Shown one piece after another: positions 19,890 through 52,404 of a stretch of DNA of 64,000 nucleotides. The notes beneath the pieces were generated by a model. It was not told the DNA's origin and did not search any database. It saw only the letters and a program-made list of their open reading frames with translations. Numbering within the stretch: position 1 is the first letter of the stretch; each line of letters begins with the position of its first letter. The DNA comes from Chromatiales bacterium (lineage in GTDB: Bacteria > Pseudomonadota > Gammaproteobacteria > Steroidobacterales > GCA-2729495): assembly GCA_002688175.1 (NCBI GenBank), contig NZCC01000024.1:18126-82125 (forward strand). The letters are read 5' to 3'. The translations under genes and the position numbers were made by a program.

Positions 19890-22800
19890 GAACTGCGCCG
19901 ATTTTTTCTTGGGATACGCGTCAGCGCGGGTACCGGATGATCTTGTCGAATCGTTTCAATAAGTACAACAAGACCCGCCACGGTCGGCGCATCAAAAAGA
20001 CCGGCCAGCGGAATTTCAAGATCCAACTGGTCGCGAATCCGGGCAATAACCCGTGTTGCGAGTAACGAGTGCCCGCCAAGTGCAAAGAAATCATCGTTTA
20101 CGCCGAGTGTCTCAAGTTGCAGCAGATCACTCCAGATCGACACCAACTCAACTTCGAGTGCGGTACGCGCGGTTTCCGGCTCCGCTACCCGTGCGCGCCG
20201 AGGGGCTGGTAACTCATGCCTTGCCAGCTTGCCACTAGTTAACCTTGGTAACATTTCCAGGCAATCAAATGACTGCGGCAACATGTATGCCGGCAATCGT
20301 TCAGCCAGTGCGGCCCGCAAATCATCCACCTGCAGCTCAACCCCCGGTGCCGCCACAACATAGGCGGCCAACCACAAATCGTCATCCCGCTGCCAGATCC
20401 TGGCCGCGCTGTCAGCCACGCCTCGTAATGCGCTCAAGGTTGCCTCGATTTCAGCCAGCTCCACGCGGTAACCGCGCACGTTAACCTGCTCGTCACGCCG
20501 ACCCACAAATACGATCTGACCATCGGGTCGGCGGTAAGCAATGTCACCGGTACGCAGGCTCGACACGGAACCTGAGCGCTGTGTATTCAAAGTTGTCTGA
20601 CCCCAATAACCCGGTGATAACCCCGTGCCACTCAGCACGATCTCCCCATACCAGCTCGACGCACCCGATTCATCAATAAGATCAACCTCAAGACCGGCAA
20701 CCGGCATACCGAGCGGCACCTGTTGCCCGTGCAACGGTGTATCGTGATCCGCCATGAACTGCAGTGCGACGGTCGACTCAGTCAACCCAAGTCCGTTCAC
20801 GAATTGCGTGCCGCGCGCAAAATACTTTCGGTACAGCTCGAAGTCTGAACGTAGCACGGGTTCGCCGCCCAGCACGACGGTACGGACTGACGACAGGTCG
20901 CACACATTGCTGCCACTGTCATAACTGCTTAGCAGATAACGAAACAGGGAAGGTGTTGCATGCATGACAGAGATCGCTGCAGTTGCCAGTTGTTCGACCA
21001 CGATCGACTGTTCGAACAGATGCTGACCACTGCTACGCACCACTAACGGGCATATTGTTGCACCGGTCAGCAAGGCACCGAAAATATCCTGAATCGCTGC
21101 ATCATAGGCATAACCCGACAACCCGCTTAACTGGTCCGACGGTCGCAGACGTAGCGCCTTACTGTAACGCCCGACCTGGATCACGACCCCGCTGTGAGTT
21201 TGCATCACCCCCTTGGGTGCACCCGTCGAACCTGAGGTATAGATAATGCACGCCAGCGTATCGGCAGCGATGTTCACAACCGGATCGCCAGCCGCTCTGC
21301 ACTCAGCTATATCGACGAGTAAAGCGGGTGACAATTGCGCCCCACACAATCCTTCTGCCTGTTGCCTGTGCTGCGGGTCAGTCACAATCGCTGCAAGGCC
21401 TGCATCGGTTGCAATGGTCGCCAGGCGGGCTGCGGGCCAGGCAGGATCGAGCGGTACCCAGGTATAACCCGCCTTCAGAACACCGAGTAGCCCGGCCACC
21501 AGCCTTTCATCGTAGCAACACAATAAACCGATGCGCGGCGGCCGCGCATCAGACGACAGTGATAATGACAATAGCTGTTGCGCAACACCGTTGGCCAGCG
21601 CATTTAACTCACCATAACTCAGTGCCGTGTCAGTAGTACGCACGGCAATGGCCTGCGGAGCCCGATGCACCTGGGAGGCAAATCGCTCAACAAGATTATC
21701 CGTCCAGTCGGGTTCCGCAATCGATACAGGCACCGTGCCCAGTTCGCTCAAGCGAACCCCCACATCCCGGGATACTGCCGTCAGTATCGTCTCATAGTAA
21801 TCAGCAAACGCTTCGATCGTGGCCACATCGAATAAGTCCGGGTTGTAGCCGAAGCCACACTGCAACTCTCCGCCACGGTCGGCAACATGCACGCTGAGAT
21901 CAAACTTTGCCGTATTGCTACTGACATTGATCGATTCAACCTCAAGACCGTCAGGTGCAAATGGATTTACCGGCTGATTATGCACAGCGAATAATGCCTG
22001 CACGATCGGGTTATAACTACGACTGCGCCGTGGCCGTAATACTTCAACCAGTTTTTCAAAAGGCAGATCCTGATGCGCATAAGCATCAAGTGCCGTTTGC
22101 TTGACCCGACCGAGCAATTCACGAATGGTCGGATTCCCGTCAACAGAGGCACGAATCACCAGCGTGTTAACGAAGAATCCAATCAGACCTTCTAGTTCTG
22201 TACGGCTGCGCCCGGCAATCGGTGTACCGACAATGACATCAGTAGTACCGGCAAAACGTGCCAGGGCAATATCGAATGCGGCCATCAACACCATAAACAA
22301 CGTACAATTTTCTGCCCGACCGACACCATGTAACGCTGCGGTCAGTCCGGCCGGTATGGTTAGCTCAAACCAGGCACCCGCATGAGTCTGCAGTGCCGGA
22401 CGCGGCCGATCGATCGGCAACTCAAGCAGTTCCGGCGCCTCTGCCAGATGGTTGCACCAGTAATCAGTCTGGCGTGCCAGTTCAGTGCCCGTCAGCCATT
22501 TTCGCTGCCAGATCGCATAATCTGCGTATTGCACCGGCAACCCCGCAGAACCAGGCACCTCCCAGCCCGGCACCTCGTCGCACCGATAGGCGTTATAGGC
22601 CTGAGACAATTCATCAAACAACACCGACAGCGACCAGCCGTCAGCAATAATGTGGTGGATAACCAGCAACAGGATGTGCTGGTCCGACTCACTCTCAAGC
22701 AGGTGTACACGCAACAGTGGTCCTGAGCTCAGGTCGAATGGCAACGCGATAAGATCCTCGAGTCGCCGGGAAGATCCGGGATACTCAACGCGTACCGACT

Positions 22801-25800
22801 TACGCCCGGCGATATGTTGCAGAGGCTCGACTTCCGGCGCCCTCTCCGGAACACCAATCGTTGTGCGCAGGCTGTCGTGCCGGGCAACGAGCGCGTCAAC
22901 GGCTTGCGATAATGCCGAACGATCCAGTGCGCCCGTCAAACGAACCGACCAATGCAAATGATAAGCCGGGTTGTCCGGTTCGAGCAGGGCAAGGAACCAG
23001 AGTCGCTGCTGCATTAATGAAACCGGCGCAGTGTAGGAAGCATGGCGCGGTAACGGATGCAGCGGTGGCGGTGCGCCGCCAACCTGCCGACCAATGGCCG
23101 CGACAAGCCCTGCAATTGTCGGGTCTTCAAATAATGCGCGTAACGGCAACTCGGTGTTGAGTACATCACGAATACGTGAAACAAGTTGCGTGGCAAGTAG
23201 TGAATGCCCGCCCCGGTCAAAGAAACTGTCATGCACGCCAATATCAGAAATACCCAGAACATCCCGATACAATTCAAGTAACACGGCCTCAACCGGCCCG
23301 GACGGCTCGACACAGGCCGTCGCATGCCGAGAAACCTGCTCCGGTACTGGCAACCTGTTTCGATCAACTTTGCCATTTGATGTAATTGGCAATGTATCGA
23401 GCTCGACAAACAATGCCGGCACCATGTAATCCGGCATCAGGCCACGCAAGGCCACGCGCAAGGCATCAATACTAATCGGCCCGGATGCAGGCACGATGAA
23501 AGCTACAAGACGGCGGTCTTTTTCAACGTTATCGATAATAACCGCTGCCGCGGCAATGTCAGGCTGACGAGACAAGGCAGCCTCGATATCACCGAGCTCA
23601 ATTCTGAAGCCGCGCAACTTGACCTGCCGATCCATGCGGCCGAGGAGGACCAGTGTGCCGTCACTGTGATAGCGAGCCCGGTCACCGGTCCGGTATAACC
23701 TGCCGCCGGGCACGAATGGGTCGGTTATAAATCGTTCAGCCGTAAGCTCCGGCTCGCCGATATATCCGCTGGCAACACCCGCACCGCCGATGCAGAGTTC
23801 ACCGGGAACACCGGGTGGCACCAGGCGTAACCCGGGATCACAAACATAAACCCGACTCCCCGCAAACGGCCGACCAATCGGTACGAAGCCTTCGTCCATG
23901 ACATGTTTTTTCATGTCTCCGAGCGCTTCAAAGAAAATGCTGTCAATCGTCGTCTCAGCCGTGCCGTAAGAATTAATCACCCGTGTATGCGGGCCGGCGA
24001 CAGTTGCCAGTGCAGCATACTCGGACCCATACCAGCTGTCTGAACCAACCGCGATCAGTCGCATGAAAGCAAGATCTGCATCAGATTGTGCAAGCCAGGC
24101 AAGCAACTCCCGCAACACGACCGGCACAAACTCGGCACAAGTCACATGCCGGTCGCGCAACAAGGCAAACAACCGTGCTGGTTCAAGCAGATCGAAACGC
24201 GGGCAAAGCACAAGGCTGCCACCGGAGCACAGTGCGCGAACCCAGTCACCGGTAAAAACATCAAAGGAAAAACTTGCCATCTGCAAATGTCGATCGTCTG
24301 CAGTCAGTGCGTAGGTATCCTGCCACGCGCTAAAGATCGCGGCGAGATTACCGTGTGTCACGGCTACCGCTTTCGGCGTTCCGGTAGACCCGGAAGTAAA
24401 CAATGCATAAGCCGGATCGGTGAGCAACGGCTGATAATCCGGACGGTTCAAGGCACCCCGCATCAGACTGACACGATCCTCATCAAGCAGGATCGTCGGC
24501 ACACTAACAAATGACAGAGCCGATGCCGCCGTCACCTGGGTAATCAGTGCCCGGGGCTGCACTACGGTGAACATGTCCGCCAGGCGTGCCGCAGGATAGC
24601 CCGCATCAAGCGGAACATATGCACATCCAGCCTTCAGAACACCGAGAACCGCAACCAACAGGTCAACCGAACGCTCAAGGCAAACTGCAATATAGGCTCC
24701 AGGCTCAATACCAAAGGCATGTAACTGGCCGGCCACACAATTTGCCTGCCGATCAAGCTCTGCATAAGTCAGGCGAATATGCTCACACTCGACAGCCAGC
24801 GCCGCGGGTTGCCGGTCGACCCAGGATTCAAACAGCGCGAGCACCGATTGCGCGTGTACTGACTGTTTACCGTCCGACTGAACATTAGAATTCTGGCCCA
24901 CGGGTGAATTCAATATATCGAGCAATACAGCTCGTTCTTCCGGTGGCCACAACGGCAATGCCGCTACCGGTGTCTCCGCTGTATCGACGATTGCATTTAA
25001 CAGGTAATCAAAGTGGGTCGCGATCTGTTCAATCGTTTGCCGGTCGAACAAATCACGATCATATTCAAAGACCAGGTCCAGTCCGTCCGCACGTTCGCCG
25101 ACATTCAAGGTCAGGTCGAATGTCGATACGCCGTGATCCTGCAAGCGTCCATTACGCATACGAACTCCGGCGACGTTCCGCGTCCGGTCAGGAATCGGTG
25201 TCATGTTAAACATGACCTGAAACACCGGCGCATGGCTCAGGGTTCGATCCGGGCGCAGCGATTCCACGAGTCGCTCGAATGGGAGGTCCTGATTAGCCTG
25301 TGAATCGAGCGTTGTGCGTCGCACACGCGTCAGTAAAGTGCTGAAGGTTGGATTGTCAGCCAGATCCGTGCGCAACGCGACGGTATTGACGAACAAACCG
25401 ATCAATCCATCAAGTTCATACCAGGACCGGCCGGCAATCGGCGAACCGACCACGATATCCGTCTGCCCGGAATAACGACTTAACAGGACATCGAATGCAC
25501 CAAGCAGAACCATGAACAGGGTACACCGATGTCGGCGCCCGAATACGCGCAACGTCTCGGCACGTTCGCCGGACAATTCACGCCATAACCAGGCGCCACG
25601 AAACATTTGTTCGGCCGGCCGTGGCCGGTCAGTCGGCAGCTCCAGAGCTGGTGGCACATCACGCAGTTGCTCAATCCAATAGTTCAACTGAGCATCGAGT
25701 TCGGGGCGCTTGATGCCTTGGCGTTGCCACAGAGAAAAATCTGCATACTGGATCGGCAACGTGGGCAATGCCGGTTCGCGACCATCGGCTATACAGCCGT

Positions 25801-28800
25801 ACAGAGTTGCCAGTTCATCGATAAAGATTCCGTTTGACAGCCCATCACTGACAATATGATGAATAACAACAAGCAGCAGAAATTTTTGTGGATCGCCCTG
25901 CAACACATCCAGACGCAGTAACGGCCCACGATCCAGAACAAATGATTGCGCGGATAACTCGGCCAGACGCCGCTCCCATTCCCGCGCATCACAACCGGTA
26001 AGATCTTCGCTGCGGATCGGTACCCGCTGATCAGGCAAAACTTCCTGATAGGGTCGACCATCGGTCGATAAGAACCGGGTGCGCAATATCTCATGACGTT
26101 GCACCAGCAAATCAACGACCGACTGCAATGCATCGAGATTCAGTTCACCGGACAGGTGAATGGTGAAGGCAATATTATATACAGGGCTATCCGGATCGAG
26201 TTCGTTCAGAAACCAGAGTCGCTCCTGGGCAAAAGACAGCGGTAACCGGTCTCCACGCTCGAACCACCCGAGCTTTATCACATCTGCAGCAGCATCAACA
26301 TTTGCCTGATTGGCCTGTTGCTGAAGGTGCTCATCAATATGTCGTGCCACCCCAACAATCGTAGGCGCATCAAAAAACTGGGCGAGATTCAGGCCAAGGT
26401 CGAAACGAGCCCGGATTCGTGCCAACAGTCGGGTAGCCGATAAAGAGTGTCCACCGCTATCGAAAAAATCATCATGCAGACCGACACGATTGAGGCCAAG
26501 GATCTCGCGCCACAGGACTGCGACAGCATGCTCGGTCTCAGTGCCCGGCGCGACGAACTCAACCGGCTGCCGCTGTTCGCCCACATCTGCCGACAGAAGC
26601 TTCGGCAAGGCCTGCAAATCAATCTTGCCACTCGGCGTTAACGGCATCCGATCTACCTCGATCAGCATGCCGGGCAGCATATAATCAGGCAAACGTGTTC
26701 TCAGGAAACTGCGTAACGCCTCCACTGGACTAATACCGGTATCCGTGAAGCCGGCATCCGCTGATTGCCAATAACCGACGAGCAACGGTTCGCTGCCGGG
26801 TCGCTGTCGAAGAACGACACAGGCATCACTGATCCCGGGATGATCACGTATAACGGTGGCGATCTCATCCGGTTCGATACGAAAACCCCGCAACTTGATC
26901 TGCCGGTCCGTACGACCAAGACACTCGAGGAGCCCGTCGGGACGATACCGCGCAAGATCACCGGTTCGATAAAGTTGTCCACTGCCACCCGCTCGGCCGT
27001 CAGTCACCGAAAAGGGGTCTGGTACAAATTGTTTGGTGTTGAGTTCAGGCTGATTCAGATACCCGGCGCCAAGACCTGCACCACTGACATACAACTCCCC
27101 GACAACACCGATCGGCACAGGCTGCAGCAAAGCATCCAGAACATAAGTACGTACGTTACCAATCGGCTTTCCGATCGGCACGATCGTTTCATCCTCGTCC
27201 CACAACGATGTATCAAAACAGGTTGCATCCCAGATTTCCGACGTGCCATAGGTATTCAGTAACGTCATGCCTGGACAGGCCCGGCGAAACCGTCGCAACA
27301 ATTCAGGGCGTAGTGGTTCGCCGCTCGTAATCCACGTGTGCAGCCCCGGCAGCCGGCGACCCAGGCGAGCATCGATATCCAATAACGCAGACAGCAGTGA
27401 CGGCACAACTACAATATGGCTAACTGTCTTGCCGACTACCTGCTCTCCCAGTCGCTCAACCAGCCTCGCCGGGTCGCTGACATCGACATCGGCAATTACC
27501 CGCAACGTCGCTCCATGCGTCAGCGGACCAAATATTTCCCAGACTGAATCAACAAAACACGGACTGGCTCGCAAACAAAAAACATCATCAACCGTGAAAC
27601 CATATTCATGCCACATCCATTCACAACGATTAACGGCCCCACCATGCAAACCGATCGCACCCTTCGGCATACCGGTTGATCCGGATGTATATAAAACATA
27701 AGCAGCATCAGCACTGTCACCCTCAATATCGGACACCACAGTATCGACACCGGGTCGGCTCCAGTCGATTTCATCAAGATGAATAGTATCGAGCGTGCCA
27801 CTGACGGAACGAGGCAGACAGCCGTCAGTAAGAATCATTTGCAGACCCGTCTGCGCAACAATAAATTGCAGACGCAGCGAAGGATAATTCGGGTCAAGGG
27901 GTACGTAAGCCGCGCCGGTTTTCAACGTTGCGATGATCCCGACGACAAGCTCCACCGAACGGCCGATACCTACCCCCACCAGGTCACCCGGACCGATACC
28001 ACGCTCGTACAGCTTGCCGGCTACCCGTTGCACACGTGCAGCAAGTTCACGATAACTAAGCGACTTATCATCATCAATAAGTGCAATTGCATCGGGGCTG
28101 CGCTCAACCTGCACTGCAAATCGCTCATGTAACTTGCCCGGCCCGGGATAATGACGACGTGTGTCATTCCAGTCGACAAGTATCTTGCTGCGCTGCCCGG
28201 GTTCAAGTAACCCAAGGCTGCCAACGAGTATCCGGGGGTCGCTGACAATTCCACGTAACAGCCTGGCATAGTGCGCCGGTATTGATCTGGCAAATGCATC
28301 GTCAAACCGCGCTGTCGAATAGCCGACATAACCACGTATTACACCGTCGTCCCCAAAATCGGAAACCGAGAATTCGATATCCCAGTACGAACTACGCGAG
28401 GTATTAAGTGTTTCCAGACCGAATCGCAGTTCGCCCCCCTGCCGGGTACGCTCGAACGCATCCTCATACAGGAACAGGATCTGAAACAACGGGTGTTCAC
28501 CAAAACGTCGCCGTGGATGCAATGCTTCCACGACACGTTCGAAAGGGACACCGGCATGTTGCAAAGCTGCCAATGCTGACGCCCGTTCGCGTACCAGCAC
28601 ATCAGCAAAAGATTCACCATCGGCCAGCTGGTTACGGAACATGACATTATTGACGAGGCACCCAACCATGTCTTGAGTCATAGCGGTATCGCGCGAGGTC
28701 ACAGGCGAACCGATCACGATGTCATGCTGACCGGAGTAACGCGTCAACAAAACCCGAAATGCGGCCAGCAATGTCATAAAAAGAGTTGCGTTTGACTGCC

Positions 28801-31800
28801 GTGACAACGCACGCACGCTATCCGCTGTCGCAGCATCGATGACAAAACCAATTCTGGATTGATTCCCATGCCACTGATCCTCGGCAACGGTAACTGCACG
28901 TGATGGCAATGCCGTGCGGTCCGGCGCATCCTGCAGTGCGCCACGCCAGAAATCCAGATCCCGTTCCCAGCCGTCACCATGCGACTCGGCGCGCTGGTGA
29001 ATCGAATAATCGCAATACTGCATCAGCGCAGGCAAGGGCTGATCAACTTCCCGGTAACCGGGCGACTCGTACCGCTGGGCAAGTTCATCACGAATGATCC
29101 GGATCGACAAACCATCTGCGATGATGTGATGTGCATTGACGAGTAACTTTGAATGCCGCGCCGACAATTGATACAGGCATGCATTAATCAGCGGACCGTT
29201 GGTCAGATCATAGCTCGTGCCAATAGCCGCCTGCGCCGCCGCCATAAACTGAGTAGCACCATTATCACCGTTGGTCGGGCTAAGTATGCTGACCGGAATC
29301 GACACGCTCTTGTGCGGCAAAACAACCTGCCGGACACCGATATCGGTTTCACGAAATACCGTTCGCAACACTTCATGACGTTCCAGTACAGCGTTCCAGG
29401 CCAACTCAAGCTGCTTGATATCGACCGACCCATCCAGCGGGATAACAAATTGCTCGTTAGAGCCGGTCATTGATGGATATAACTGATTTAAAACCCAGAA
29501 GCTTTGCTGTTGAAAAGACAGTGGCGCATCGTCATTTCCCGGGACGGGACTACTATCGACACTGTCGGCGACCGATGCATCACCCGAGTAGCGCACCGCA
29601 ATGGCGGTGCCATGATGCTCGCGCAGGTATTGACCAAGCCCGGCAACGGTCGGCGCATCAAATAAGGCAATCAACATGACAGCATCATCGAGCAGGCGTT
29701 GCAGTGCGCTCGTCATGCGAACTGCAGAAATTGAATCCCCACCGAGATCAAAGAAATTATCCTGGATACCAATATTGTCGACATGCAACATGTCCTGCCA
29801 AAGCGCGACCAGATCACGCTCCAGGTCATCACGGGCCGGCTCACCCGGCACATCTGAATTTCGCTCAGGTGCCGGCAGTGCCTGTCGGTCAAGTTTGTGG
29901 TTACTCGTCAGCGGCAATTGTTCAAGTTCAACCCATGCTGTCGGCAGCATATATTCCGGCAACCGCGCAGCAAGCCAGTGGCGTAATGGTTCATGCGCCA
30001 AACTGTCACCATCCGGGTGGTCGCTCGCCTCGTGCCACAGTGCCCGGTACAGTGGTGTACTGTTAAGCGCCGTTTCTTCGACCCGTGATCGATATTCGAA
30101 GTTTGCCTGCTGCCCATTATCGGTCGCGAATGAGGTTGCAACCCGATAGTCCGGATGAATACTAGGCACCCCGGTTATAGAATCGGCAGCCGGAATCCCG
30201 ATCGACCATTCAACCTCGATCGTGTCACCCTCATTTACCGGCACACCAAAAAGGTCACCGGTTTCACCCAGCGGGAAAAATACCGGTAACCACGCACGCT
30301 GAGTGCGACGATAATTCACATCAGTGTCGCCGCCTGTGGTAACCACGGTCCAGACGAGGTAACCATCGAGGCGGGCATCGCGAGCAATTTTCAGCCGGGC
30401 ACTACCGTGCGATGCGTCAGCTAACTCCCTGGTGAAATCAAGATCTTCGAAGACATGTGCAGCAGAAATAATCGCTGCTTCAGGCAAATCACTGATGCAC
30501 AGCCGGATATCGAAACGGCGGTCGAACCGGTCGAATACCTGCTCCGCATAGCGACTTGCCACAGGGCTGAAGGCCGGATCGGCAATAAGGCTTGCAGGCA
30601 ATTCAACGGCCGCAATTAGTGTGCGGCAATGTGCCGGCACCGGTACGCAGTCAGGAGCAAAATGACGCCGGGCACTATTCCAGATCGGCACAATGCCATC
30701 CGCACTGCCAATATTACCGATGATACCCTGGGTGCAGACATCAACTCGTTCAGGTAAATCAACTGATGCCATATCGCCCTGCATGACGATAATTCGGTCA
30801 GCCAGCCCCTGATCATTTATTAAAGTACGTGCTTTGCGATACGCATCTTCAAGTATCTCAACGGCGTATACTTTATGGGCACCGGCATCAATACACATAC
30901 GCGCCAATAGCGCATGCTCACCGGTGCCGATATCCAGCACCACCTTACCGCGCACCGAACGGTCAAATGCTTCGCGATAACTCTTTAGCCTCTCGGCTTC
31001 CGAACTCATCAGGTCGTAAAGGAATTCATCGTACAGTTGATAAGGTCCGACCGATGGCCAGAATTCGGGACGAGTAGCCGGCTCCGGTAACAACCCTGCA
31101 TGCGGAACGACATAGCCAACCAGCCTGGGCTCCCCGCCGTAATCAGATCGCAGGGCAACCGCAGCATCATCGATAGCGGGATGCTCCCGCAACACAGCTG
31201 CAATTTCGCCAGGCTCGATCCGGTAACCACGCAACTTGATCTGCTCATCCGTACGGCCGAGAAATTCAAGTTCACCCTCTGATGTCAGACGTGCCCGGTC
31301 ACCGGTTCGGTACCAGCGTGTCGCCTGGCACCCATCGATACTTATGGTGATGAATCGCTGACTGGTCTGCTCCTCCACACCAATATAGCCCCGGGCAACT
31401 GACGGCCCACCAACGAACAGTTCGCCGGCCTGACCGGTCGGTACCGGCAGCCATTCCTGATCGGCACATTCTTCACTAATAATCACCAGCTCAGCATGCG
31501 CCAATGGCCGGCCGACGCCGACTGCGACTCCCGCGCTCCGGTCTGCGGTTTCACAGGCCGCAAAGGTCAGCTGCCCGGCCGTCTCGGTAATCGCATAGGT
31601 GTTGACGATGCGCGGCTCAGCATCGCCGTGCTGCCGGAACCAGCGTTGCAACGCCTCTGTATCGACAGCCTCCCCGCTCAGCACCACACAACGTAGCGCA
31701 GTAGCTGCAATACCGTCAGCGAAAATATCGGATAACAGATTCTGCCGGAATGCGGATGGAGTCTGGCTCATCATCGTCACATGTTGCGAGCACACCAGCG

Positions 31801-32494
31801 CAAACAGCCGGGCGGGATCAGTCCGCAATTCTGGTGGCACGATGACGAGTCGGCCGCCGTGACACAAAGCGCCCCAGATTTCCCAAACCGAATATCCGAA
31901 CGATAACGGATGAAACATCGTCCAGACATCACCGGCATCAATATCGAGCCGGGCACCGATATCGTCAAACAGGGGAGCCAGATTTCCGTGAGTGACCATG
32001 ACACCTTTCGGTGCACCGGTCGAACCGGAGGTGAACATGACGTAACACAGATCATCAGAGGCGACGGGCATGTGCGGATCATCACTACCGGATGCCTTGA
32101 CCGGATCACTGTCCGCGTAAATGAGTTGTGCCGCGTGACCGGGCAGATCGGCCGCCGCCGTGGGCTGCGTAATGATAACGGCCGGTTCGGCCAGCTCGAG
32201 GATCTGCGCCAGCCGGTTAGTCGGCAGATCCGGATTCATCGGTACATAAGCACCGCCGGCCTTCATGATACCCAGCATCGCGGCAATCAGTTCAGCCCCT
32301 GGCGGCAGGTGCAGCCCCACGCGGACCTCGGCCACGACACCCGCCCCGATCAACGCATGCGCGAACTGGTTCGCCAGTGTATTTAAATCACCATAGGTCA
32401 GATGTCGCTCGCCGATAGTCAAGGCAACCACATACGGCCGCGACGCGGCGTGATTCTCGAATGACTCGTGCAGCAACATATCTATACCCGGCAC
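19886..32494 (-). CDS. nonribosomal peptide synthetase, modules 1-4: A(embedded MT)-T-C-A-T-C-A-T-C-A-T
   Basis: 4202 aa and no N-terminal C domain. A1: FTSGSTGAPKGV (154-165), SFGYSVWE (198-205), GRTDEQIKLRGYRIEPGEI (413-431), then a ~370-aa insert, then LPEYMLP (845-851), NHKLDR (865-870). T1: FFDLGGDS (914-921). C: HHIIADGLS (1122-1130). A2: YTSGSTGMPKGA. T2: FFDSGGHS. C: HHIVSDGLS (2212-2220). A3: FTSGSTGTPKAV. T3: FFDRGGHS. C: HHIIADGWS (3280-3288). A4: YTSGSTGAPKGV. T4: FFALGGHS (4136-4143). Confidence 0.95.
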   Translation of the reverse strand: MPGIDMLLHESFENHAASRPYVVALTIGERHLTYGDLNTLANQFAHALIGAGVVAEVRVGLHLPPGAELIAAMLGIMKAGGAYVPMNPDLPTNRLAQILELAEPAVIITQPTAAADLPGHAAQLIYADSDPVKASGSDDPHMPVASDDLCYVMFTSGSTGAPKGVMVTHGNLAPLFDDIGARLDIDAGDVWTMFHPLSFGYSVWEIWGALCHGGRLVIVPPELRTDPARLFALVCSQHVTMMSQTPSAFRQNLLSDIFADGIAATALRCVVLSGEAVDTEALQRWFRQHGDAEPRIVNTYAITETAGQLTFAACETADRSAGVAVGVGRPLAHAELVIISEECADQEWLPVPTGQAGELFVGGPSVARGYIGVEEQTSQRFITISIDGCQATRWYRTGDRARLTSEGELEFLGRTDEQIKLRGYRIEPGEIAAVLREHPAIDDAAVALRSDYGGEPRLVGYVVPHAGLLPEPATRPEFWPSVGPYQLYDEFLYDLMSSEAERLKSYREAFDRSVRGKVVLDIGTGEHALLARMCIDAGAHKVYAVEILEDAYRKARTLINDQGLADRIIVMQGDMASVDLPERVDVCTQGIIGNIGSADGIVPIWNSARRHFAPDCVPVPAHCRTLIAAVELPASLIADPAFSPVASRYAEQVFDRFDRRFDIRLCISDLPEAAIISAAHVFEDLDFTRELADASHGSARLKIARDARLDGYLVWTVVTTGGDTDVNYRRTQRAWLPVFFPLGETGDLFGVPVNEGDTIEVEWSIGIPAADSITGVPSIHPDYRVATSFATDNGQQANFEYRSRVEETALNSTPLYRALWHEASDHPDGDSLAHEPLRHWLAARLPEYMLPTAWVELEQLPLTSNHKLDRQALPAPERNSDVPGEPARDDLERDLVALWQDMLHVDNIGIQDNFFDLGGDSISAVRMTSALQRLLDDAVMLIALFDAPTVAGLGQYLREHHGTAIAVRYSGDASVADSVDSSPVPGNDDAPLSFQQQSFWVLNQLYPSMTGSNEQFVIPLDGSVDIKQLELAWNAVLERHEVLRTVFRETDIGVRQVVLPHKSVSIPVSILSPTNGDNGATQFMAAAQAAIGTSYDLTNGPLINACLYQLSARHSKLLVNAHHIIADGLSIRIIRDELAQRYESPGYREVDQPLPALMQYCDYSIHQRAESHGDGWERDLDFWRGALQDAPDRTALPSRAVTVAEDQWHGNQSRIGFVIDAATADSVRALSRQSNATLFMTLLAAFRVLLTRYSGQHDIVIGSPVTSRDTAMTQDMVGCLVNNVMFRNQLADGESFADVLVRERASALAALQHAGVPFERVVEALHPRRRFGEHPLFQILFLYEDAFERTRQGGELRFGLETLNTSRSSYWDIEFSVSDFGDDGVIRGYVGYSTARFDDAFARSIPAHYARLLRGIVSDPRILVGSLGLLEPGQRSKILVDWNDTRRHYPGPGKLHERFAVQVERSPDAIALIDDDKSLSYRELAARVQRVAGKLYERGIGPGDLVGVGIGRSVELVVGIIATLKTGAAYVPLDPNYPSLRLQFIVAQTGLQMILTDGCLPRSVSGTLDTIHLDEIDWSRPGVDTVVSDIEGDSADAAYVLYTSGSTGMPKGAIGLHGGAVNRCEWMWHEYGFTVDDVFCLRASPCFVDSVWEIFGPLTHGATLRVIADVDVSDPARLVERLGEQVVGKTVSHIVVVPSLLSALLDIDARLGRRLPGLHTWITSGEPLRPELLRRFRRACPGMTLLNTYGTSEIWDATCFDTSLWDEDETIVPIGKPIGNVRTYVLDALLQPVPIGVVGELYVSGAGLGAGYLNQPELNTKQFVPDPFSVTDGRAGGSGQLYRTGDLARYRPDGLLECLGRTDRQIKLRGFRIEPDEIATVIRDHPGISDACVVLRQRPGSEPLLVGYWQSADAGFTDTGISPVEALRSFLRTRLPDYMLPGMLIEVDRMPLTPSGKIDLQALPKLLSADVGEQRQPVEFVAPGTETEHAVAVLWREILGLNRVGLHDDFFDSGGHSLSATRLLARIRARFDLGLNLAQFFDAPTIVGVARHIDEHLQQQANQANVDAAADVIKLGWFERGDRLPLSFAQERLWFLNELDPDSPVYNIAFTIHLSGELNLDALQSVVDLLVQRHEILRTRFLSTDGRPYQEVLPDQRVPIRSEDLTGCDAREWERRLAELSAQSFVLDRGPLLRLDVLQGDPQKFLLLVVIHHIVSDGLSNGIFIDELATLYGCIADGREPALPTLPIQYADFSLWQRQGIKRPELDAQLNYWIEQLRDVPPALELPTDRPRPAEQMFRGAWLWRELSGERAETLRVFGRRHRCTLFMVLLGAFDVLLSRYSGQTDIVVGSPIAGRSWYELDGLIGLFVNTVALRTDLADNPTFSTLLTRVRRTTLDSQANQDLPFERLVESLRPDRTLSHAPVFQVMFNMTPIPDRTRNVAGVRMRNGRLQDHGVSTFDLTLNVGERADGLDLVFEYDRDLFDRQTIEQIATHFDYLLNAIVDTAETPVAALPLWPPEERAVLLDILNSPVGQNSNVQSDGKQSVHAQSVLALFESWVDRQPAALAVECEHIRLTYAELDRQANCVAGQLHAFGIEPGAYIAVCLERSVDLLVAVLGVLKAGCAYVPLDAGYPAARLADMFTVVQPRALITQVTAASALSFVSVPTILLDEDRVSLMRGALNRPDYQPLLTDPAYALFTSGSTGTPKAVAVTHGNLAAIFSAWQDTYALTADDRHLQMASFSFDVFTGDWVRALCSGGSLVLCPRFDLLEPARLFALLRDRHVTCAEFVPVVLRELLAWLAQSDADLAFMRLIAVGSDSWYGSEYAALATVAGPHTRVINSYGTAETTIDSIFFEALGDMKKHVMDEGFVPIGRPFAGSRVYVCDPGLRLVPPGVPGELCIGGAGVASGYIGEPELTAERFITDPFVPGGRLYRTGDRARYHSDGTLVLLGRMDRQVKLRGFRIELGDIEAALSRQPDIAAAAVIIDNVEKDRRLVAFIVPASGPISIDALRVALRGLMPDYMVPALFVELDTLPITSNGKVDRNRLPVPEQVSRHATACVEPSGPVEAVLLELYRDVLGISDIGVHDSFFDRGGHSLLATQLVSRIRDVLNTELPLRALFEDPTIAGLVAAIGRQVGGAPPPLHPLPRHASYTAPVSLMQQRLWFLALLEPDNPAYHLHWSVRLTGALDRSALSQAVDALVARHDSLRTTIGVPERAPEVEPLQHIAGRKSVRVEYPGSSRRLEDLIALPFDLSSGPLLRVHLLESESDQHILLLVIHHIIADGWSLSVLFDELSQAYNAYRCDEVPGWEVPGSAGLPVQYADYAIWQRKWLTGTELARQTDYWCNHLAEAPELLELPIDRPRPALQTHAGAWFELTIPAGLTAALHGVGRAENCTLFMVLMAAFDIALARFAGTTDVIVGTPIAGRSRTELEGLIGFFVNTLVIRASVDGNPTIRELLGRVKQTALDAYAHQDLPFEKLVEVLRPRRSRSYNPIVQALFAVHNQPVNPFAPDGLEVESINVSSNTAKFDLSVHVADRGGELQCGFGYNPDLFDVATIEAFADYYETILTAVSRDVGVRLSELGTVPVSIAEPDWTDNLVERFASQVHRAPQAIAVRTTDTALSYGELNALANGVAQQLLSLSLSSDARPPRIGLLCCYDERLVAGLLGVLKAGYTWVPLDPAWPAARLATIATDAGLAAIVTDPQHRQQAEGLCGAQLSPALLVDIAECRAAGDPVVNIAADTLACIIYTSGSTGAPKGVMQTHSGVVIQVGRYSKALRLRPSDQLSGLSGYAYDAAIQDIFGALLTGATICPLVVRSSGQHLFEQSIVVEQLATAAISVMHATPSLFRYLLSSYDSGSNVCDLSSVRTVVLGGEPVLRSDFELYRKYFARGTQFVNGLGLTESTVALQFMADHDTPLHGQQVPLGMPVAGLEVDLIDESGASSWYGEIVLSGTGLSPGYWGQTTLNTQRSGSVSSLRTGDIAYRRPDGQIVFVGRRDEQVNVRGYRVELAEIEATLSALRGVADSAARIWQRDDDLWLAAYVVAAPGVELQVDDLRAALAERLPAYMLPQSFDCLEMLPRLTSGKLARHELPAPRRARVAEPETARTALEVELVSIWSDLLQLETLGVNDDFFALGGHSLLATRVIARIRDQLDLEIPLAGLFDAPTVAGLVVLIETIRQDHPVPALTRIPRKNRRSS
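29975..31087 (-). other. PRMT-fold SAM methyltransferase domain inserted between adenylation motifs A8 and A9 of NRPS module 1
   Basis: About res 470-840 of the 4202-aa NRPS. GKVVLDIGTGEHALLARMCIDAGAHKVYAVE...RIIVMQGDMASVDLPERVDVCTQG...RRHFAPDCVPVPAHCRTLIAAVE, then a beta-barrel-like segment (RAWLPVFFPL...GDTIEVEW). This is collinear with protein arginine methyltransferase motifs I, post-I, II, III and the THW loop. Boundaries are approximate. Confidence 0.7.
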
Positions 32495-33225
32495 TCAAGA
32501 CCGATGACCGGCGGATTGTCCAGATACTCCTGCCAGTAATCGACACCGTGCGCCTCGATACCGGCCGGATCGAGCATGAGCGGATGCCATGCAACGCGGC
32601 CAAAACCGACATCGGTCAACACTTGTTCATAAGTCTGCCGTGCATAGTAATGCGCATGAAACTTAAACAGTTCACGTCCGGCGACCATGAAGTAGGTAAT
32701 CTGCGCGCCATCGGTTGCAGGCTTGTCGATTGTCTTGTTGAAACCATATTGCTCATAACCGCCATACTGTCCGGCCGCCTGATCAGGATTTTCATTGAGC
32801 GTTACAAAACGACCGGTCACAGACATATGGCGCTTTATATTGCGGCACATGCGCACAAGATCGGTGCAGCTCGGTGCGTAGTGCAACAGGTAGGCTGCAA
32901 CGATAACGTCAAACTCGCCGAGATCATCAAGCTCGCATACATCTGCACAGACAAAATCTATGCCCTGCGGATCATTGCGTTCCTGTTGTTCCGCCAGGCG
33001 AATCATCTCAACGGAGATATCGACACCGGTAACACTTGCAGCCCCGAGCGCCTTCAGGCGGCGCGAATAAAAACCTTCACCGCAAGCCAGATCCAGTACT
33101 CGCTTGCCACGAACATCGCCGATAAGATTTAAAAAGGTGTAGGCCTCGATGTATGCCCGCAGCGGCGATGATTTTGACCGCCGATATTGTTCGGCGATGG
33201 CATCGTACTGGCTTGCGCTTGGCAT
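32482..33225 (-). CDS. class I SAM-dependent small-molecule methyltransferase
   Basis: GKRVLDLACGEGFYSRRL (motif I), VTGVDIS, FDVIVAAYLLHY, plus a ~100-aa C-terminal cap. I prefer the Met at 33225 (MPSASQYDAIAEQY). The ORF-track start at 33282 would overlap the deaminase by 40 nt. The 3' end overlaps the NRPS start by 13 nt. Confidence 0.8.
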   Translation of the reverse strand: MPSASQYDAIAEQYRRSKSSPLRAYIEAYTFLNLIGDVRGKRVLDLACGEGFYSRRLKALGAASVTGVDISVEMIRLAEQQERNDPQGIDFVCADVCELDDLGEFDVIVAAYLLHYAPSCTDLVRMCRNIKRHMSVTGRFVTLNENPDQAAGQYGGYEQYGFNKTIDKPATDGAQITYFMVAGRELFKFHAHYYARQTYEQVLTDVGFGRVAWHPLMLDPAGIEAHGVDYWQEYLDNPPVIGLECRV

Positions 33226-33242: not shown

Positions 33243-33722
33243 CTATCGACCGCCGGACCACGTTACAATCAGCGCACGACATTCCGCTGCAAGGCAGCCG
33301 CCTTCGAGTTTCAGCGGCACGAAGTTACCGGGCGATGTAGCCAGTTCGTTGCCGGTGACGGCATTCATGTCAGCAATCCCGGCCCCATAAACTATTCTGC
33401 TGACCCCGGCATAGTGACAGGCCGTCTGGCACATCAAGCAGGGTTCAACGGTTACGTACAACGTGCATCCGCTCAGATCGAGCTTGCGCAGCTGACGACA
33501 TGCCTCGCGAATAACCCGCATTTCGGCATGTGCGGTGATATCAAGTTCACCGATTACGGCATTACTCAGTGTTACAACAATCTCGCCATCCGCAACCAGG
33601 CACGCACCTACCGGTGGTTCGCCGGCCAGCATACCGCGTCGTGCTGCTTCAAGCGCCGCCAGCATGAAAACATCATGCGACGATGCACCGCTGGCAACCC
33701 CGGCTGTATCGACATCAATCAT
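33243..33722 (-). CDS. CDA-fold zinc deaminase, guanine-deaminase/TadA-like
   Basis: About 160 aa from Met at 33722 (MIDVDTAG...). Zn motifs [13 protein letters not shown] and [11 protein letters not shown]. The start overlaps the queD stop by 8 nt. Confidence 0.8.
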
Positions 33723-34089
33723 CGGGGCCCCGGTAGATGCATCCGGATGTACAGGTTTCGTTAATGACCACCCGTGACAATTGCGGCAGATCGGGCTTGA
33801 GGTGATCCCAAATCCATTTTGCCAGCACTTCACTCGTCGGGTTTTCCAGGCCCTCTATGTCATTCAGATAGTTATGATCAAGCTGCTCGAACAAAGGGGC
33901 AAACAATTTCTTGATATCCCCGTAATCCATAATCCAGCCAGACTCGGGATCGATATCACCGGCAACATAAATCCCACTCTTCCACGAATGGCCATGCAAA
34001 CGGGCGCACTTGTGCCCCGGTGGGACTCGCGGCAACCGATGTGCCGCCTCAAACATAAATTCTTTATATATTTCCATGCATATCTCCAA
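33715..34089 (-). CDS. queD: 6-carboxy-5,6,7,8-tetrahydropterin synthase (QueD/PTPS family)
   Basis: 124 aa, collinear with E. coli QueD as I remember it. [59 protein letters not shown]. Confidence 0.9.
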
Positions 34090-34324: not shown

Positions 34325-34999
34325 ATGGAACAAATCGCTAACATCAAGACTATCAGCATCATCGGCGGCACCGGCGCACTCGGCACCGGGCTGGCCAGTC
34401 GCTGGGCCCGGGCCGGCTATCGGATCATCATCGGTTCCCGGCAGGCCGATAAAGCCGTCAACTCAGCAGCCGCTCTGCATAAGGATTTGCCGGATGCAGC
34501 GATTGAAGGACTGCAGAATCGTGCGGCAGCCGCGGCCGGCGATATTGTCATCATGACCGTACCGTTCGCACACCAGCGCCCGACCCTCGAGGATATTCGT
34601 AGCGAACTGGCCGGGAAAATCCTCATCGATACGACCGTACCGCTGGTTCCACCCAAGGTTGCACGGGTACAAATGCCCGCTGAAGGCTGCGCTGCACTGA
34701 TTGCACAGCAAATCGTCGGTGAAAATGTCACGGTAGTTTCCGCATTCCAGAACGTCGCAGCCGACCTGATGGCATCCGATACCGAGATGGGCTGCGATGT
34801 ACTCGTAGCCGGTGATAAACTCGCGGCTCGTGAAGTGGTCATACAACTGGCTGAACAAGCAAAATTTAAAGCCTGGCACGCCGGACCGCTCGCCAATTCG
34901 GGGGCCATGGAAGCACTGACGTCGGTGCTGATTTTCATTAACAAACGCTATCCCGGCAGCCACGCAGGCGTGCGCGTGACCGGAATCGCAACACCCTGA
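34325..34999 (+). CDS. fno: NADPH-dependent F420 reductase (F420H2:NADP+ oxidoreductase)
   Basis: About 224 aa from the ATG at 34325 (MEQIANIKTISIIGGTGALGTGLASRWARAGYRIIIGSR). This is the Rossmann fold typical of the Fno/NpdG family. The upstream part of the ORF-track frame is not protein-like. Confidence 0.75.
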   Translation: MEQIANIKTISIIGGTGALGTGLASRWARAGYRIIIGSRQADKAVNSAAALHKDLPDAAIEGLQNRAAAAAGDIVIMTVPFAHQRPTLEDIRSELAGKILIDTTVPLVPPKVARVQMPAEGCAALIAQQIVGENVTVVSAFQNVAADLMASDTEMGCDVLVAGDKLAAREVVIQLAEQAKFKAWHAGPLANSGAMEALTSVLIFINKRYPGSHAGVRVTGIATP

Positions 35000-35009
35000 T
35001 CCGGATTCG

Positions 35010-36745: not shown

Positions 36746-36749
36746 ACCA

Positions 36750-49614: not shown

Positions 49615-49883
49615 TGCCCGGACTTCATGTCAGTGGCGTGCTGATAAACGCCGACCCGGAGTGTCTTAATAGCGTGCAAGCGCAACTAGAGTCCACCCCG
49701 GGGGTTGAGATCCACACCGTGACGCCCGAGGGACGCCTGGTCACAGTTATTGAACAATCTACCGACGATGAACTGGTGAATACTTTCACCAATATACAGA
49801 ACACGGCGGGGGTGCTTTCCGCATCCCTGGTCTACCACTACAGCGAAAATGAGAACGCTGCCGAACAGGAGACCGCATCATGA
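49614..49883 (+). CDS. napD: NapA maturation chaperone NapD
   Basis: 89 aa from the ATG at 49614 ([16 protein letters not shown]...[18 protein letters not shown]...[11 protein letters not shown]). ATGA overlap with napA. Confidence 0.85.
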
Positions 49884-52387: not shown

Positions 52388-52404
52388 AGTTAGTACCAAC
52401 AGTG

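What the first reader, a model, noticed from the sequence alone, without database searches (positions are those of the whole stretch)
31880..31903. Starter adenylation domain lacks the alpha-amino-binding Asp235 (SFGYSVWE instead of FDxSxxE)
Seen in sequence: the reverse complement of 31880-31903 encodes S-F-G-Y-S-V-W-E (res 198-205). Aligned by hand to the GrsA-PheA A4 motif SFDASVWE, Asp235 is Gly and Ala236 is Tyr. My hand-derived 10-residue code is GYWSVSTGQK. The A5 motif is also atypical (NTYAITETAG). The other five A domains all retain an Asp at or next to this position. Established knowledge: Asp235 salt-bridges the substrate alpha-amino group, and it is replaced in domains that load aryl, keto, hydroxy or other non-amino acids. 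Inference: module 1 loads a carboxylic acid with no alpha-amine, which fits a heteroaryl (pteridine) acid starter. Because the protein begins directly with this A domain (no C domain), it is the initiation module.
Basis: partly seen in the sequence, partly recalled or inferred. Interest (0 to 1): 0.75.

Follow-up and report, generated by a model that had tools for sequence, protein, structure and literature searches.

The report
Pterin-acid loading module of a bacterial NRPS
The first module of this six-module peptide synthetase belongs to a conserved, undescribed bacterial family of loading domains that has lost the amino-group-binding aspartate. Its gene neighbours indicate that it starts the peptide with a GTP-derived pterin/lumazine carboxylic acid, a building block so far known only from fungal peptides.

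Summary
Window 31880-31903 (-) encodes SFGYSVWE, and every alignment puts Gly where GrsA-PheA has Asp235. The glycine is invariant in 87 of 87 homologues, which also share NTYA[IVL]TE..G[QN] (Ala at 324, Gly at 330). This clade is sister to threonine-activating A domains, not to aryl-acid enzymes, and in the representatives checked it is always N-terminal.

The domain carries an embedded PRMT-fold methyltransferase and starts the protein, so it is the initiation module. The operon also encodes QueD (6-carboxytetrahydropterin synthase), a guanine-deaminase-like deaminase, a ToxA-type (toxoflavin) N-methyltransferase and FolE.

In 63 species-level loci with upstream sequence, the deaminase is present in 62, the ToxA-like MT in 60 and QueD in 49. 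In other phyla the deaminase is fused behind the carrier domain, FolE2 replaces FolE, and a minimal PTPS + deaminase + A(MT)-T-TE version exists.

Best reading (about 0.6): A1 loads QueD-derived 6-carboxy(tetrahydro)pterin, which is deaminated and N-methylated on the carrier to a lumazine-6-carbonyl cap. This has not been tested biochemically.

An F420 biosynthesis operon sits beside the cluster in most gammaproteobacterial loci; its role is unexplained.

The parts
31880..31903 (-). A4 core motif SFGYSVWE of the starter A domain. Gly (codon 31895-31897) sits at the Asp235 position and Tyr at 236.
   Evidence: Gly invariant in 87/87 homologues
31571..31603 (-). A5 core motif NTYAITETAGQ. Ala replaces Gly324, Gly replaces Ile330, and Gln is at 331. 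In PheA these backbone positions contact the alpha-amino group.
31085..32494 (-). Adenylation core of module 1 (A1), motifs A3-A8 intact. The likely true start is the ATG at 32479.
   Evidence: Pfam AMP-binding; PDB hits; AF2 pLDDT 87 and Foldseek matches to NRPS A domains; start
29945..31069 (-). Methyltransferase domain with a PRMT (protein arginine methyltransferase) fold, inserted between A8/A9 and A10. The PRMT double-E loop is replaced by TQGIIGNIGSADG.
   Evidence: profile vs PDB PRMT6 E 8e-23; AF2 pLDDT 87.7; Foldseek PRMT6 E 1e-24; Pfam MT families
29825..29944 (-). Remainder of the A domain after the insertion, with A10 LPLTSNHKLDR (Lys517 equivalent present)
29600..29812 (-). Carrier (T) domain 1, FFDLGGDSIS
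   Evidence: Pfam PP-binding
19886..32494 (-). NRPS 1: A1(MT)-T-C-A2-T-C-A3-T-C-A4-T
13530..19889 (-). NRPS 2: C-A5-T-C-A6-T, with no release domain
32482..33225 (-). ToxA-family (toxoflavin-type) SAM-dependent N-methyltransferase. Its stop codon overlaps the NRPS start.
   Evidence: PDB ToxA 8rdl/5jdz E 8e-39 to 1e-38, end to end; present in 60/63 loci
33243..33722 (-). Zinc deaminase with a cytidine-deaminase fold (TadA / guanosine deaminase / guanine deaminase relatives). The proposed reaction is pterin to lumazine.
   Evidence: present in 62/63 loci; fused behind the T domain in P0053, P0114 and L059
33715..34077 (-). QueD, 6-carboxy-5,6,7,8-tetrahydropterin synthase (C-x3-HGH motif)
   Evidence: TIGR03367 103.3 bits, above its cut-off of 89.25; present in 49/63 loci; PTPS overlaps the A(MT)-T-TE gene in L166
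12888..13475 (-). GTP cyclohydrolase I FolE, 54 bp downstream of NRPS 2 on the same strand
   Evidence: TIGR00063 251 bits, above its cut-off of 181.6; the non-homologous FolE2 occupies this role in L002/L015
34325..39820 (+). Coenzyme F420 operon npdG-cofE-cofD-cofC-fbiC, divergent from queD. It is a conserved neighbour with an unexplained role.

Best explanation
A1 is the loading domain of a six-module NRPS. It belongs to a distinct, conserved clade of A domains that arose from threonine-type domains. The three positions that hold the alpha-amino group were remodelled (Asp235 to Gly, Gly324 to Ala, Ile330 to Gly), and the pocket is lined by Phe/Tyr236, Trp/Phe239, Ser278, Ser301, Thr322 and Gln/Asn331.

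Proposed pathway (all steps inferred):
1. FolE converts GTP to dihydroneopterin triphosphate.
2. QueD converts that to 6-carboxy-5,6,7,8-tetrahydropterin.
3. A1 adenylates the 6-carboxylate of this acid, or of its oxidised form 6-carboxypterin, and loads it on T1.
4. On the carrier, the deaminase turns the 2-amino-4-oxo ring into the 2,4-dioxo (lumazine) ring.
5. The ToxA-like methyltransferase and the embedded PRMT-fold methyltransferase methylate ring nitrogens (or an oxygen).
6. The resulting N-methylated lumazine-6-carbonyl cap is extended by modules 2-6. From the codes, recalled from memory, these are beta-Ala-like, Orn-like, unknown, Gly-like, unknown.

Shown: the sequence features, the domain order, the family-wide conservation and the gene neighbourhood. 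Inferred: substrate identity, ring oxidation state, order of tailoring steps and methylation sites.
For: Gly at 235 in every alignment. It is invariant together with Ala324 and Gly330 across the family.

The catalytic motifs A3, A7, A8 and A10-Lys and the T-domain Ser are intact, so the domain looks active.

The operon order queD-deaminase-MT-NRPS1-NRPS2-folE has overlapping or closely spaced genes.

QueD and FolE score above NCBIfam equivalog cut-offs. Among PTPS-family products, only the QueD product is a carboxylic acid (established knowledge).

The stand-alone MT aligns end to end with ToxA, which N-methylates a fused pyrimidine-2,4-dione. The deaminase is related to guanine/guanosine deaminases, which act on the same 2-amino-4-oxopyrimidine ring as in pterin.

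Across 63 species-level loci with more than 3 kb upstream, the deaminase is present in 62, the ToxA-like MT in 60 and QueD in 49.

Architectures in other phyla point the same way:
- PTPS + FolE2 + A(MT)-T-deaminase-MT fusion.
- QueD directly upstream of an NRPS with the deaminase fused behind T.
- A minimal PTPS + deaminase + A(MT)-T-TE cluster with overlapping genes.

In the 150 best representatives, Gly235 hosts are N-terminal in 18/18 clear motif cases. The same M-domain type in internal modules sits in Asp235 hosts.

Precedent: fungal penilumamide synthetase loads pterin-6-carboxylic acid, and its cluster has a deaminase and two MTs that yield 1,3-dimethyllumazine-6-carboxamide (PMC10549243).
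Against: There is no biochemical or metabolite evidence.

Fourteen of 63 loci lack a local queD, and one planctomycete locus (L050) lacks all accessory genes.

FolE/FolE2 was seen next to the cluster only in the window and in L002/L015. Most fetched loci end before the 3' end of their NRPS genes.

The only characterised pterin-specific A domain (PlmA, code DVMVLLMITK) keeps Asp235, so loss of the Asp is not required for pterin acids.

Pocket residues come from sequence alignment only, because model coordinates could not be inspected. Positions 330/331 depend on the alignment.

The embedded MT has a non-canonical motif I (GTGEHA), and its activity is unproven.
Confidence: 0.6

Rival explanations
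1. A1 loads some other carboxylic acid without an alpha-amine (aryl, keto, hydroxy or short acyl acid). The pterin genes would then make a separate moiety or a cofactor used elsewhere in the pathway.
For: Loss of Asp235 is generic for non-amino-acid substrates (established knowledge). Fourteen of 63 loci lack a local queD, and L050 lacks all accessory genes.
Against: The cluster encodes no enzyme that would make another acid, and no embedded ketoreductase. PTPS, the deaminase and A(MT)-T remain together even in minimal clusters with no other NRPS module, and as fusion proteins. The pocket combines aromatic and Ser/Thr/Gln residues, which suits a flat polar heterocycle.
Confidence: 0.15
2. A1 still activates an alpha-amino acid. 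Candidates are a threonine-like residue, or one whose nitrogen is weakly basic or substituted and is bound without the Asp235 salt bridge.
For: The nearest relatives are Thr-activating domains at 37-45% identity. The best structural matches are amino-acid A domains, including Thr1 and ObiF1. 6-carboxytetrahydropterin is itself formally a cyclic alpha-amino acid.
Against: All three amino-group contacts (235, 324, 330) are changed and then held invariant. No acidic residue occupies any code position. Seven of the nine variable code positions differ from the Thr code DFWNIGMVHK.
Confidence: 0.08
3. A1 loads 7-carboxy-7-deazaguanine, the next queuosine-pathway intermediate, giving a 7-deazapurine cap.
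For: FolE and QueD are the first two steps towards it. It is a heteroaryl carboxylic acid with the same 2-amino-4-oxopyrimidine ring (pathway as summarised in PMC12235509).
Against: Neither queE (radical SAM) nor queC was found in the annotated window operon or in the relatives whose gene calls were read. A cluster that duplicates folE and queD but not queE points to a branch at the QueD product. The ToxA-like MT fits a pteridine/azapteridine dione better.
Confidence: 0.05
4. The substrate is related to coenzyme F420, for example the free carboxylate of F420-0 or F420-n, whose alpha position is already substituted. The peptide would then be built on the cofactor.
For: The F420 operon adjoins the cluster in 54-57 of 63 loci. 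Opening positions 235 and 330 to Gly would make room for a large alpha substituent (inference).
Against: Loci in other phyla keep PTPS, the deaminase and A(MT)-T without any F420 genes. Similar F420 operons mostly occur without the cluster: 37-38 of 40. The window also encodes two F420-dependent oxidoreductases, indicating general use of the cofactor.
Confidence: 0.03
5. A1 is a decayed, inactive domain and the glycine is a loss-of-function mutation.
For: Asp235 is missing, and A10 reads NHK instead of NGK.
Against: The motif is invariant across 87 homologues that share only 36-84% identity. All catalytic motifs are intact. The AF2 model is confident.
Confidence: 0.02

Closest known systems
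PlmA adenylation domain of fungal penilumamide synthetase (Aspergillus flavipes; PMC10549243)
   Same: It is an NRPS starter domain that activates pterin-6-carboxylic acid. Its cluster has a GTP cyclohydrolase I, a deaminase and two methyltransferases, and yields a 1,3-dimethyllumazine-6-carbonyl cap. The predicted logic here is the same.
   Different: It is fungal. Its code DVMVLLMITK keeps Asp235. There is no embedded methyltransferase. The acid is made via dihydroneopterin aldolase plus oxidoreductases, not QueD. PlmA has a truncated N-terminal C domain. Sequence relatedness to A1 was not tested.
A domains that have lost Asp235 for substrates without an alpha-amine (aryl-acid DhbE/EntE type; keto-acid modules of cereulide/valinomycin; fungal hydroxy-acid and anthranilate modules). 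From my own knowledge.
   Same: The amino-group-binding Asp is replaced, and they are typically used at chain initiation.
   Different: A1 is not related to the stand-alone aryl-acid enzymes; none appears among the 60 best PDB sequence hits or the 50 best fold hits. It has no embedded ketoreductase. It forms its own clade next to Thr-type domains.
Interrupted A domains with a side-chain methyltransferase resembling arginine methyltransferases (e.g. LynB3 O-MT of lyngbyapeptin B; PMC10127204)
   Same: A PRMT-like M domain is inserted in the C-terminal part of an A domain. The same M-domain type is widespread, with 1995 representatives at E<1e-30.
   Different: Those hosts keep Asp235 and NxYGPTE, sit in elongation modules and methylate amino-acid side chains. 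Here the host has Gly235, is a loading module, and the double-E loop reads Q...D.
ToxA, the dual N-methyltransferase of toxoflavin biosynthesis (PDB 5jdz, 8rdl)
   Same: The stand-alone MT aligns over its full length with E about 1e-38, and the N-terminal Tyr is conserved. ToxA's substrate is a fused pyrimidine-2,4-dione heterocycle.
   Different: Here it is encoded in an NRPS operon with QueD rather than with toxBCDE. The substrate is probably carrier-bound, and the methylation sites are unknown.
Pepteridine pathway of Photorhabdus luminescens (PMC5384830)
   Same: It is a bacterial cluster that combines GTP cyclohydrolase I and a PTPS homologue with NRPS-like carrier and condensation machinery.
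   Different: It has no A domain. The pterin is the free nucleophile that is N-acylated, not an acyl starter, and there is no deaminase or ToxA-like MT.

Membership tests
NRPS adenylation domain (ANL superfamily, amino-acid type) | AMP-binding fold and core motifs A3, A5, A7, A8 and the A10 lysine | tested here: met
   Pfam PF00501. Motifs located. Foldseek TM 0.8-0.85 to ApnA, Thr1 and PheA.
NRPS adenylation domain (ANL superfamily, amino-acid type) | Asp235 (PheA numbering) binding the substrate alpha-amino group | tested here: not met
   Gly at this position in three alignments and in 87/87 relatives.
Stand-alone aryl-acid adenylating enzymes (DhbE/EntE/BasE type) | Closest sequence or fold relatives are aryl-acid enzymes, with Asn at 235 | tested here: not met
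   None appears among the 60 best PDB sequence hits or the 50 best fold hits. Residue 235 is Gly. The sister group has the Thr code.
Keto-acid-activating modules with an embedded ketoreductase | KR domain inserted in the A domain | tested here: not met
   The insertion is a PRMT-fold methyltransferase, not a KR.
Interrupted A domain carrying an M domain | SAM-dependent methyltransferase fold inserted between A8/A9 and A10 | tested here: met
   The insertion spans residues 476-850, between A8 (413-427) and A10 (860-870). The MT fold is shown. SAM binding and activity were not testable.
Protein arginine methyltransferases (type I PRMT) | Double-E loop (two glutamates binding the guanidinium) | tested here: not met
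   The aligned loop reads TQGIIGNIGSADG, that is Gln and Asp in place of the two Glu. The fold is shared, but the arginine-binding signature is not.
ToxA family N-methyltransferases (the stand-alone MT) | Full-length similarity to ToxA, including the N-terminal Tyr | tested here: met
   E 8e-39 over residues 25-264 against ToxA 4-241. The YD.I motif aligns.
QueD (6-carboxytetrahydropterin synthase) | Score above the equivalog cut-off and the C-x3-HGH active-site motif | tested here: met
   TIGR03367 103.3 bits against a cut-off of 89.25. HKCARLHGH is read directly from the translation.
GTP cyclohydrolase I FolE | Score above the equivalog cut-off | tested here: met
   TIGR00063 251.1 bits against a cut-off of 181.6.
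Pterin-specific A domain as defined by fungal PlmA | Specificity code DVMVLLMITK, and activation of pterin-6-carboxylic acid in vitro | tested here: not met
   The code here is GYWSVSTGQK, against DVMVLLMITK in PMC10549243. The substrate assay is not testable with these tools.

The most novel reading that the evidence does not exclude
A widespread but uncharacterised bacterial family of NRPS loading modules takes the queuosine intermediate 6-carboxytetrahydropterin as a building block. It deaminates and N-methylates it while carrier-bound and so makes lumazine-capped peptides, or in single-module versions free modified pteridine acids. It is found mostly in uncultured marine and sediment Gammaproteobacteria, and also in Planctomycetota, Verrucomicrobiota and Sumerlaeota. 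In Gammaproteobacteria the system is genetically coupled to coenzyme F420 biosynthesis, which hints at an F420-linked redox role for the pteridine cap.
Probability: 0.5. Interest if true: 0.75.

Novelty: new variant of a known kind. Interest (0 to 1): 0.62.

Why it matters
If the reading is right:
- It gives a sequence signature, FG[FY]S..E plus NTYA[IVL]TE..G[QN], with the code G-[FY]-[WF]-S-[VA]-S-T-G-[QN]-K. Specificity predictors could use it to recognise pteridine-acid starters in bacteria.
- It would be the first use of a queuosine-pathway intermediate as an NRPS building block.
- It predicts bacterial counterparts of the fungal lumazine peptides, in abundant uncultured marine lineages.
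- It points to on-carrier deamination and methylation, supported by natural fusion proteins.
- The conserved adjacency to F420 genes offers a testable lead on what F420 does in Proteobacteria.

Tried and rejected
Rfam scan of the whole window: no riboswitch or other RNA family at gathering score.

Literature searches found no bacterial precedent. I tried 6-carboxytetrahydropterin + NRPS, F420 + NRPS + pterin, pterin-6-carboxylic acid + nonribosomal, and lumazine-6-carboxylic + bacteria. The QueD hits in PMC12235509 concern 7-deazaguanine DNA-modification islands, not NRPS.

I tested whether the F420 operon is dedicated to this NRPS. Of 40 metagenomic npdG operons with upstream sequence, only 2-3 carry the cluster, so I rejected 'dedicated'.

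The large family MAFFT alignment shifted code positions 330/331 to L,T. I rejected that register in favour of the ungapped one.

In the NJ tree, one divergent member (P0114) fell at the base of the Thr clade. I treat this as an artefact of a distance tree; the remaining 32 Gly-type tips form one clade.

Locus L050 (Planctomycetales) has the A(MT) module but none of the accessory genes in range. Pfam on its neighbours gave only a carboxyltransferase.

Residue-level structural superposition on 1AMU was not possible, because the tools return scores rather than coordinates.

Full report
OBSERVATION

The reverse complement of window 31880-31903 translates to SFGYSVWE. This is residues 198-205 of a 4202-aa ORF (19886-32494, - strand, GTG start). 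On identical marine metagenome contigs, including a TARA Oceans assembly, gene callers start the protein at Met6, giving 4197 aa. The glycine is therefore G200 or G195 depending on the start; its codon GGA is at 31895-31897.

I rebuilt the GrsA-PheA sequence from memory. It returns the canonical code DAWTIAAICK at positions 235, 236, 239, 278, 299, 301, 322, 330, 331 and 517, which validates it as a reference.

MAFFT of PheA with the six A domains gives these codes:
- A2 VDWVISTDAK
- A3 DVGEAGSIDK
- A4 DAQHVGGVAK
- A5 DILQLGMIWK
- A6 DAQHVGGLAK

ARCHITECTURE

NRPS1 is A1(MT)-T-C-A2-T-C-A3-T-C-A4-T. NRPS2 (13530-19889, -) is C-A5-T-C-A6-T, with no thioesterase or reductase.

The ORF cannot extend upstream of 32494, and the preceding gene's stop codon overlaps it. 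No C domain precedes A1, so A1 is the initiation module. Motifs A3, A7, A8, the A10 lysine and the carrier serine are all intact.

A 375-residue insertion lies between A8 (residues 413-427) and A10 (860-870).

THE A1 FAMILY

A search with A1(MT)-T found a large set of proteins, mostly 935-995 aa stand-alone A(MT)-T units from uncultured Gammaproteobacteria, at 40-79% identity.

Every member that has the insertion has FG[FY]S at A4. Ordinary NRPS hits from the same search have FDxS. In an 87-member alignment, Gly235 is invariant, position 236 is Phe or Tyr, 239 is Trp or Phe, 278 is Ser (81 of 87), 301 is Ser (87 of 87) and 322 is Thr (77 of 87).

That large alignment shifted positions 330/331. 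The ungapped register from the A5 motif, and an alignment with Thr-type domains, give Gly330 and Gln/Asn331. The family code is therefore G-[FY]-[WF]-S-[VA]-S-T-G-[QN]-K.

A 24-sequence alignment shows F, G, S and E of A4, and Y, A, T, E and the following G of A5, as invariant. In PheA the alpha-amino group is held by Asp235 and by the backbone carbonyls of Gly324 and Ile330 (established knowledge from 1AMU). All three positions are changed here and then fixed.

The closest domains outside the family (37-45% identity) carry the canonical threonine code DFWNIGMVHK and the motif NMYGITETT. The Ile in 'NTYAITE' is therefore inherited from that clade; Ala324 and Gly330 are the family-specific changes.

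In an NJ tree the Gly-type domains form one clade sister to the Thr-type clade, apart from one divergent member placed at the base of the Thr clade. Both clades are separate from A2-A6 of the same synthetase.

The AF2 model of the A core (pLDDT 87.0) is most similar to amino-acid A domains: ApnA A1, ObiF1, Thr1, McyB and PheA 1AMU (TM 0.81). No aryl-acid enzyme is among the top 50. In the model the Gly sits at the N-terminal end of helix 195-205.

THE EMBEDDED DOMAIN

A profile of the insertion matches PRMT6 and other protein arginine methyltransferases (E 8e-23) across both the Rossmann part and the beta-barrel. The AF2 model (pLDDT 87.7) gives Foldseek E 1e-24 to PRMT6. The PRMT double-E loop aligns with TQGIIGNIGSADG, so the two glutamates are Gln and Asp.

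M domains resembling arginine methyltransferases are already described as side-chain O-methyltransferases in cyanobacterial interrupted A domains (PMC10127204). A search of 1.84 billion representatives found 1995 at E<1e-30.

Among the best 150, internal-module hosts keep FDxS and NAYGPTE. All 18 clear FG[FY]S hosts have the insertion at residue 436-517, which makes them N-terminal loading modules. The M-domain type is thus not new. Its combination with a Gly235 loading domain defines the family.

GENE NEIGHBOURHOOD

On the same strand, the genes directly upstream of NRPS1 are:
- QueD (33715-34077; TIGR03367 103 bits, cut-off 89; C-x3-HGH motif).
- A cytidine-deaminase-fold zinc deaminase (33243-33722). 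Its nearest solved relatives are TadA, plant guanosine deaminase and B. subtilis guanine deaminase.
- A class I methyltransferase (32482-33225) that aligns end to end with ToxA, the dual N-methyltransferase of toxoflavin biosynthesis (E 8e-39).

FolE lies 54 bp downstream of NRPS2.

A scan of species-representative genomes returned 78 loci. Nearly all are uncultured Gammaproteobacteria, often labelled Chromatiales; a few are Planctomycetota, Verrucomicrobiota and Sumerlaeota. Among 63 loci with more than 3 kb upstream of the A domain, the deaminase is present in 62, the ToxA-like MT in 60 and QueD in 49.

The architectures outside Gammaproteobacteria are the most telling:
- L002/L015: a different PTPS plus the non-homologous type 2 GTP cyclohydrolase I (FolE2), directly upstream of an A(MT)-T-deaminase-MT fusion protein.
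- L059: QueD abuts an NRPS whose first module is A(MT)-T-deaminase.
- L167: an A(MT)-T-deaminase protein on its own.
- L166: a minimal cluster of deaminase, PTPS and A(MT)-T-TE, with the PTPS stop overlapping the synthetase start and no further NRPS module.

MECHANISM

Among PTPS-family products, only the QueD product, 6-carboxy-5,6,7,8-tetrahydropterin, is a carboxylic acid. The A domain needs a carboxylate.

The deaminase family acts on the 2-amino-4-oxopyrimidine ring that pterins share with guanine. ToxA methylates ring nitrogens of a fused pyrimidine-2,4-dione.

Recurrent fusion of the deaminase behind the carrier domain, and the embedding of one MT in the A domain, suggest that tailoring happens on the thioester.

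The best-supported scheme is therefore:
1. GTP to dihydroneopterin triphosphate (FolE).
2. Then to 6-carboxytetrahydropterin (QueD).
3. Adenylation and loading by A1, in the tetrahydro or the oxidised form.
4. Deamination to the lumazine ring.
5. Methylation by the two MTs.
6. Extension by modules 2-6.

The pocket has two aromatic side chains plus Ser, Ser, Thr and Gln/Asn, and no acidic residue. That fits a flat, polar heterocycle.

It is only weakly basic, so it would not need a salt bridge.

From memory of published codes, A2 resembles beta-Ala (VDWVISLADK), A3 Orn (DVGEIGSIDK) and A5 Gly (DILQLGLIWK). I do not recognise A4 or A6.

COMPARISON WITH KNOWN SYSTEMS

The only characterised pterin-specific A domain is fungal PlmA of penilumamide biosynthesis. 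Its cluster has the same logic: GTP cyclohydrolase I, a deaminase, two MTs, and a 1,3-dimethyllumazine-6-carbonyl cap. But PlmA keeps Asp235 (code DVMVLLMITK), has no embedded MT, and its acid is made through dihydroneopterin aldolase and oxidoreductases rather than QueD.

The Photorhabdus pepteridine pathway joins pterin enzymes to NRPS-like parts. It has no A domain and uses the pterin as the nucleophile.

Full-text searches found no bacterial lumazine- or pterin-starter NRPS. The library does not cover all journals.

I therefore rate this as a new variant of a known kind. Loss of Asp235 for a non-amino-acid starter is textbook. The family, its code, the QueD-derived substrate and the on-carrier tailoring appear to be undescribed.

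F420 ADJACENCY (unexplained)

Divergent from queD lies npdG-cofE-cofD-cofC-fbiC (34325-39820). These genes accompany the cluster in 54-57 of the 63 loci, and in the relatives examined individually. They are absent in the non-gammaproteobacterial loci and in a few proteobacterial ones (L018, L049 and others).

The reverse does not hold. Of 40 metagenomic npdG operons (50-59% identity) with upstream sequence, only 2-3 carry the cluster.

The window also encodes two F420-dependent luciferase-like oxidoreductases at 54014-56032.

F420 is thus not dedicated to the NRPS. Whether the pteridine pathway depends on F420H2, or whether the adjacency is inherited synteny, remains open.

VERDICT

Confidence in a pteridine-6-carboxylate-type starter is about 0.6.

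Noticed in passing
window 34325-39820 (+); loci L001, L003-L079, L081-L085: A complete coenzyme F420 operon (npdG, cofE, cofD, cofC, fbiC) lies divergent from queD. It adjoins the pterin-NRPS cluster in 54-57 of 63 species-level loci. Similar F420 operons mostly occur without the cluster (37-38 of 40). The functional link is unexplained.
   Followed up: partly
window 54014-54976 (-) and 54992-56032 (-): Two luciferase-like oxidoreductases of the F420-dependent class. The second scores above the TIGR03559 cut-off; the first falls just below TIGR03619. The organism therefore probably uses F420 for other reactions as well.
   Followed up: partly
window 26400-27900 (-), A2 of NRPS1 (motif CFVDSVWE): A2 has Val at 235 and the Asp shifted to 236 (code VDWVISTDAK). 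From memory, this resembles the beta-alanine signature, so a beta-amino acid probably follows the starter.
   Followed up: partly
window about 20170-21730 (-) (A4) and about 13820-15390 (-) (A6): The last A domains of the two synthetases are close paralogues. Their codes are DAQHVGGVAK and DAQHVGGLAK, A4 reads YAYDAAIQD / FAYDAAIQD, A5 reads NGLGLTES, and A10 reads GKLAR / GKVAR instead of GK.DR. I could not assign a substrate.
   Followed up: no
window 13530-13600 (-) and 11396-12706 (-): NRPS2 ends in a carrier domain with no thioesterase, reductase or terminal C domain, so chain release is unexplained. After folE comes an amidohydrolase with a signal-peptide-like N-terminus.
   Followed up: no
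L166 9099-13603; L167 883-4236; L002 8399-14416: Single-module versions of the system exist: PTPS + deaminase + A(MT)-T-TE, A(MT)-T-deaminase, and A(MT)-T-deaminase-MT with FolE2. Some organisms may therefore make only the modified pteridine acid on a carrier protein.
   Followed up: partly
representative proteins P0121-P0260: The PRMT-fold embedded methyltransferase is a widespread NRPS M-domain class, with 1995 representatives at E<1e-30. It is mostly found in internal modules whose A domains keep Asp235.
   Followed up: partly
window 39909-40661 (-): A 250-aa ORF matches only the C-terminal two thirds (model positions about 154-391) of methionine gamma-lyase / cystathionine gamma-synthase family enzymes. 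It is either a truncated gene or a fragment. The same 250-aa gene is called on identical marine contigs (L081, L083, L084).
   Followed up: no
window 49880-53780 (+) and 57385-62443: A periplasmic nitrate reductase-like set (molybdopterin oxidoreductase, NapB, NapC/NirT) and two PQQ-dependent dehydrogenases. These look like ordinary respiratory context for a marine gammaproteobacterium.
   Followed up: no
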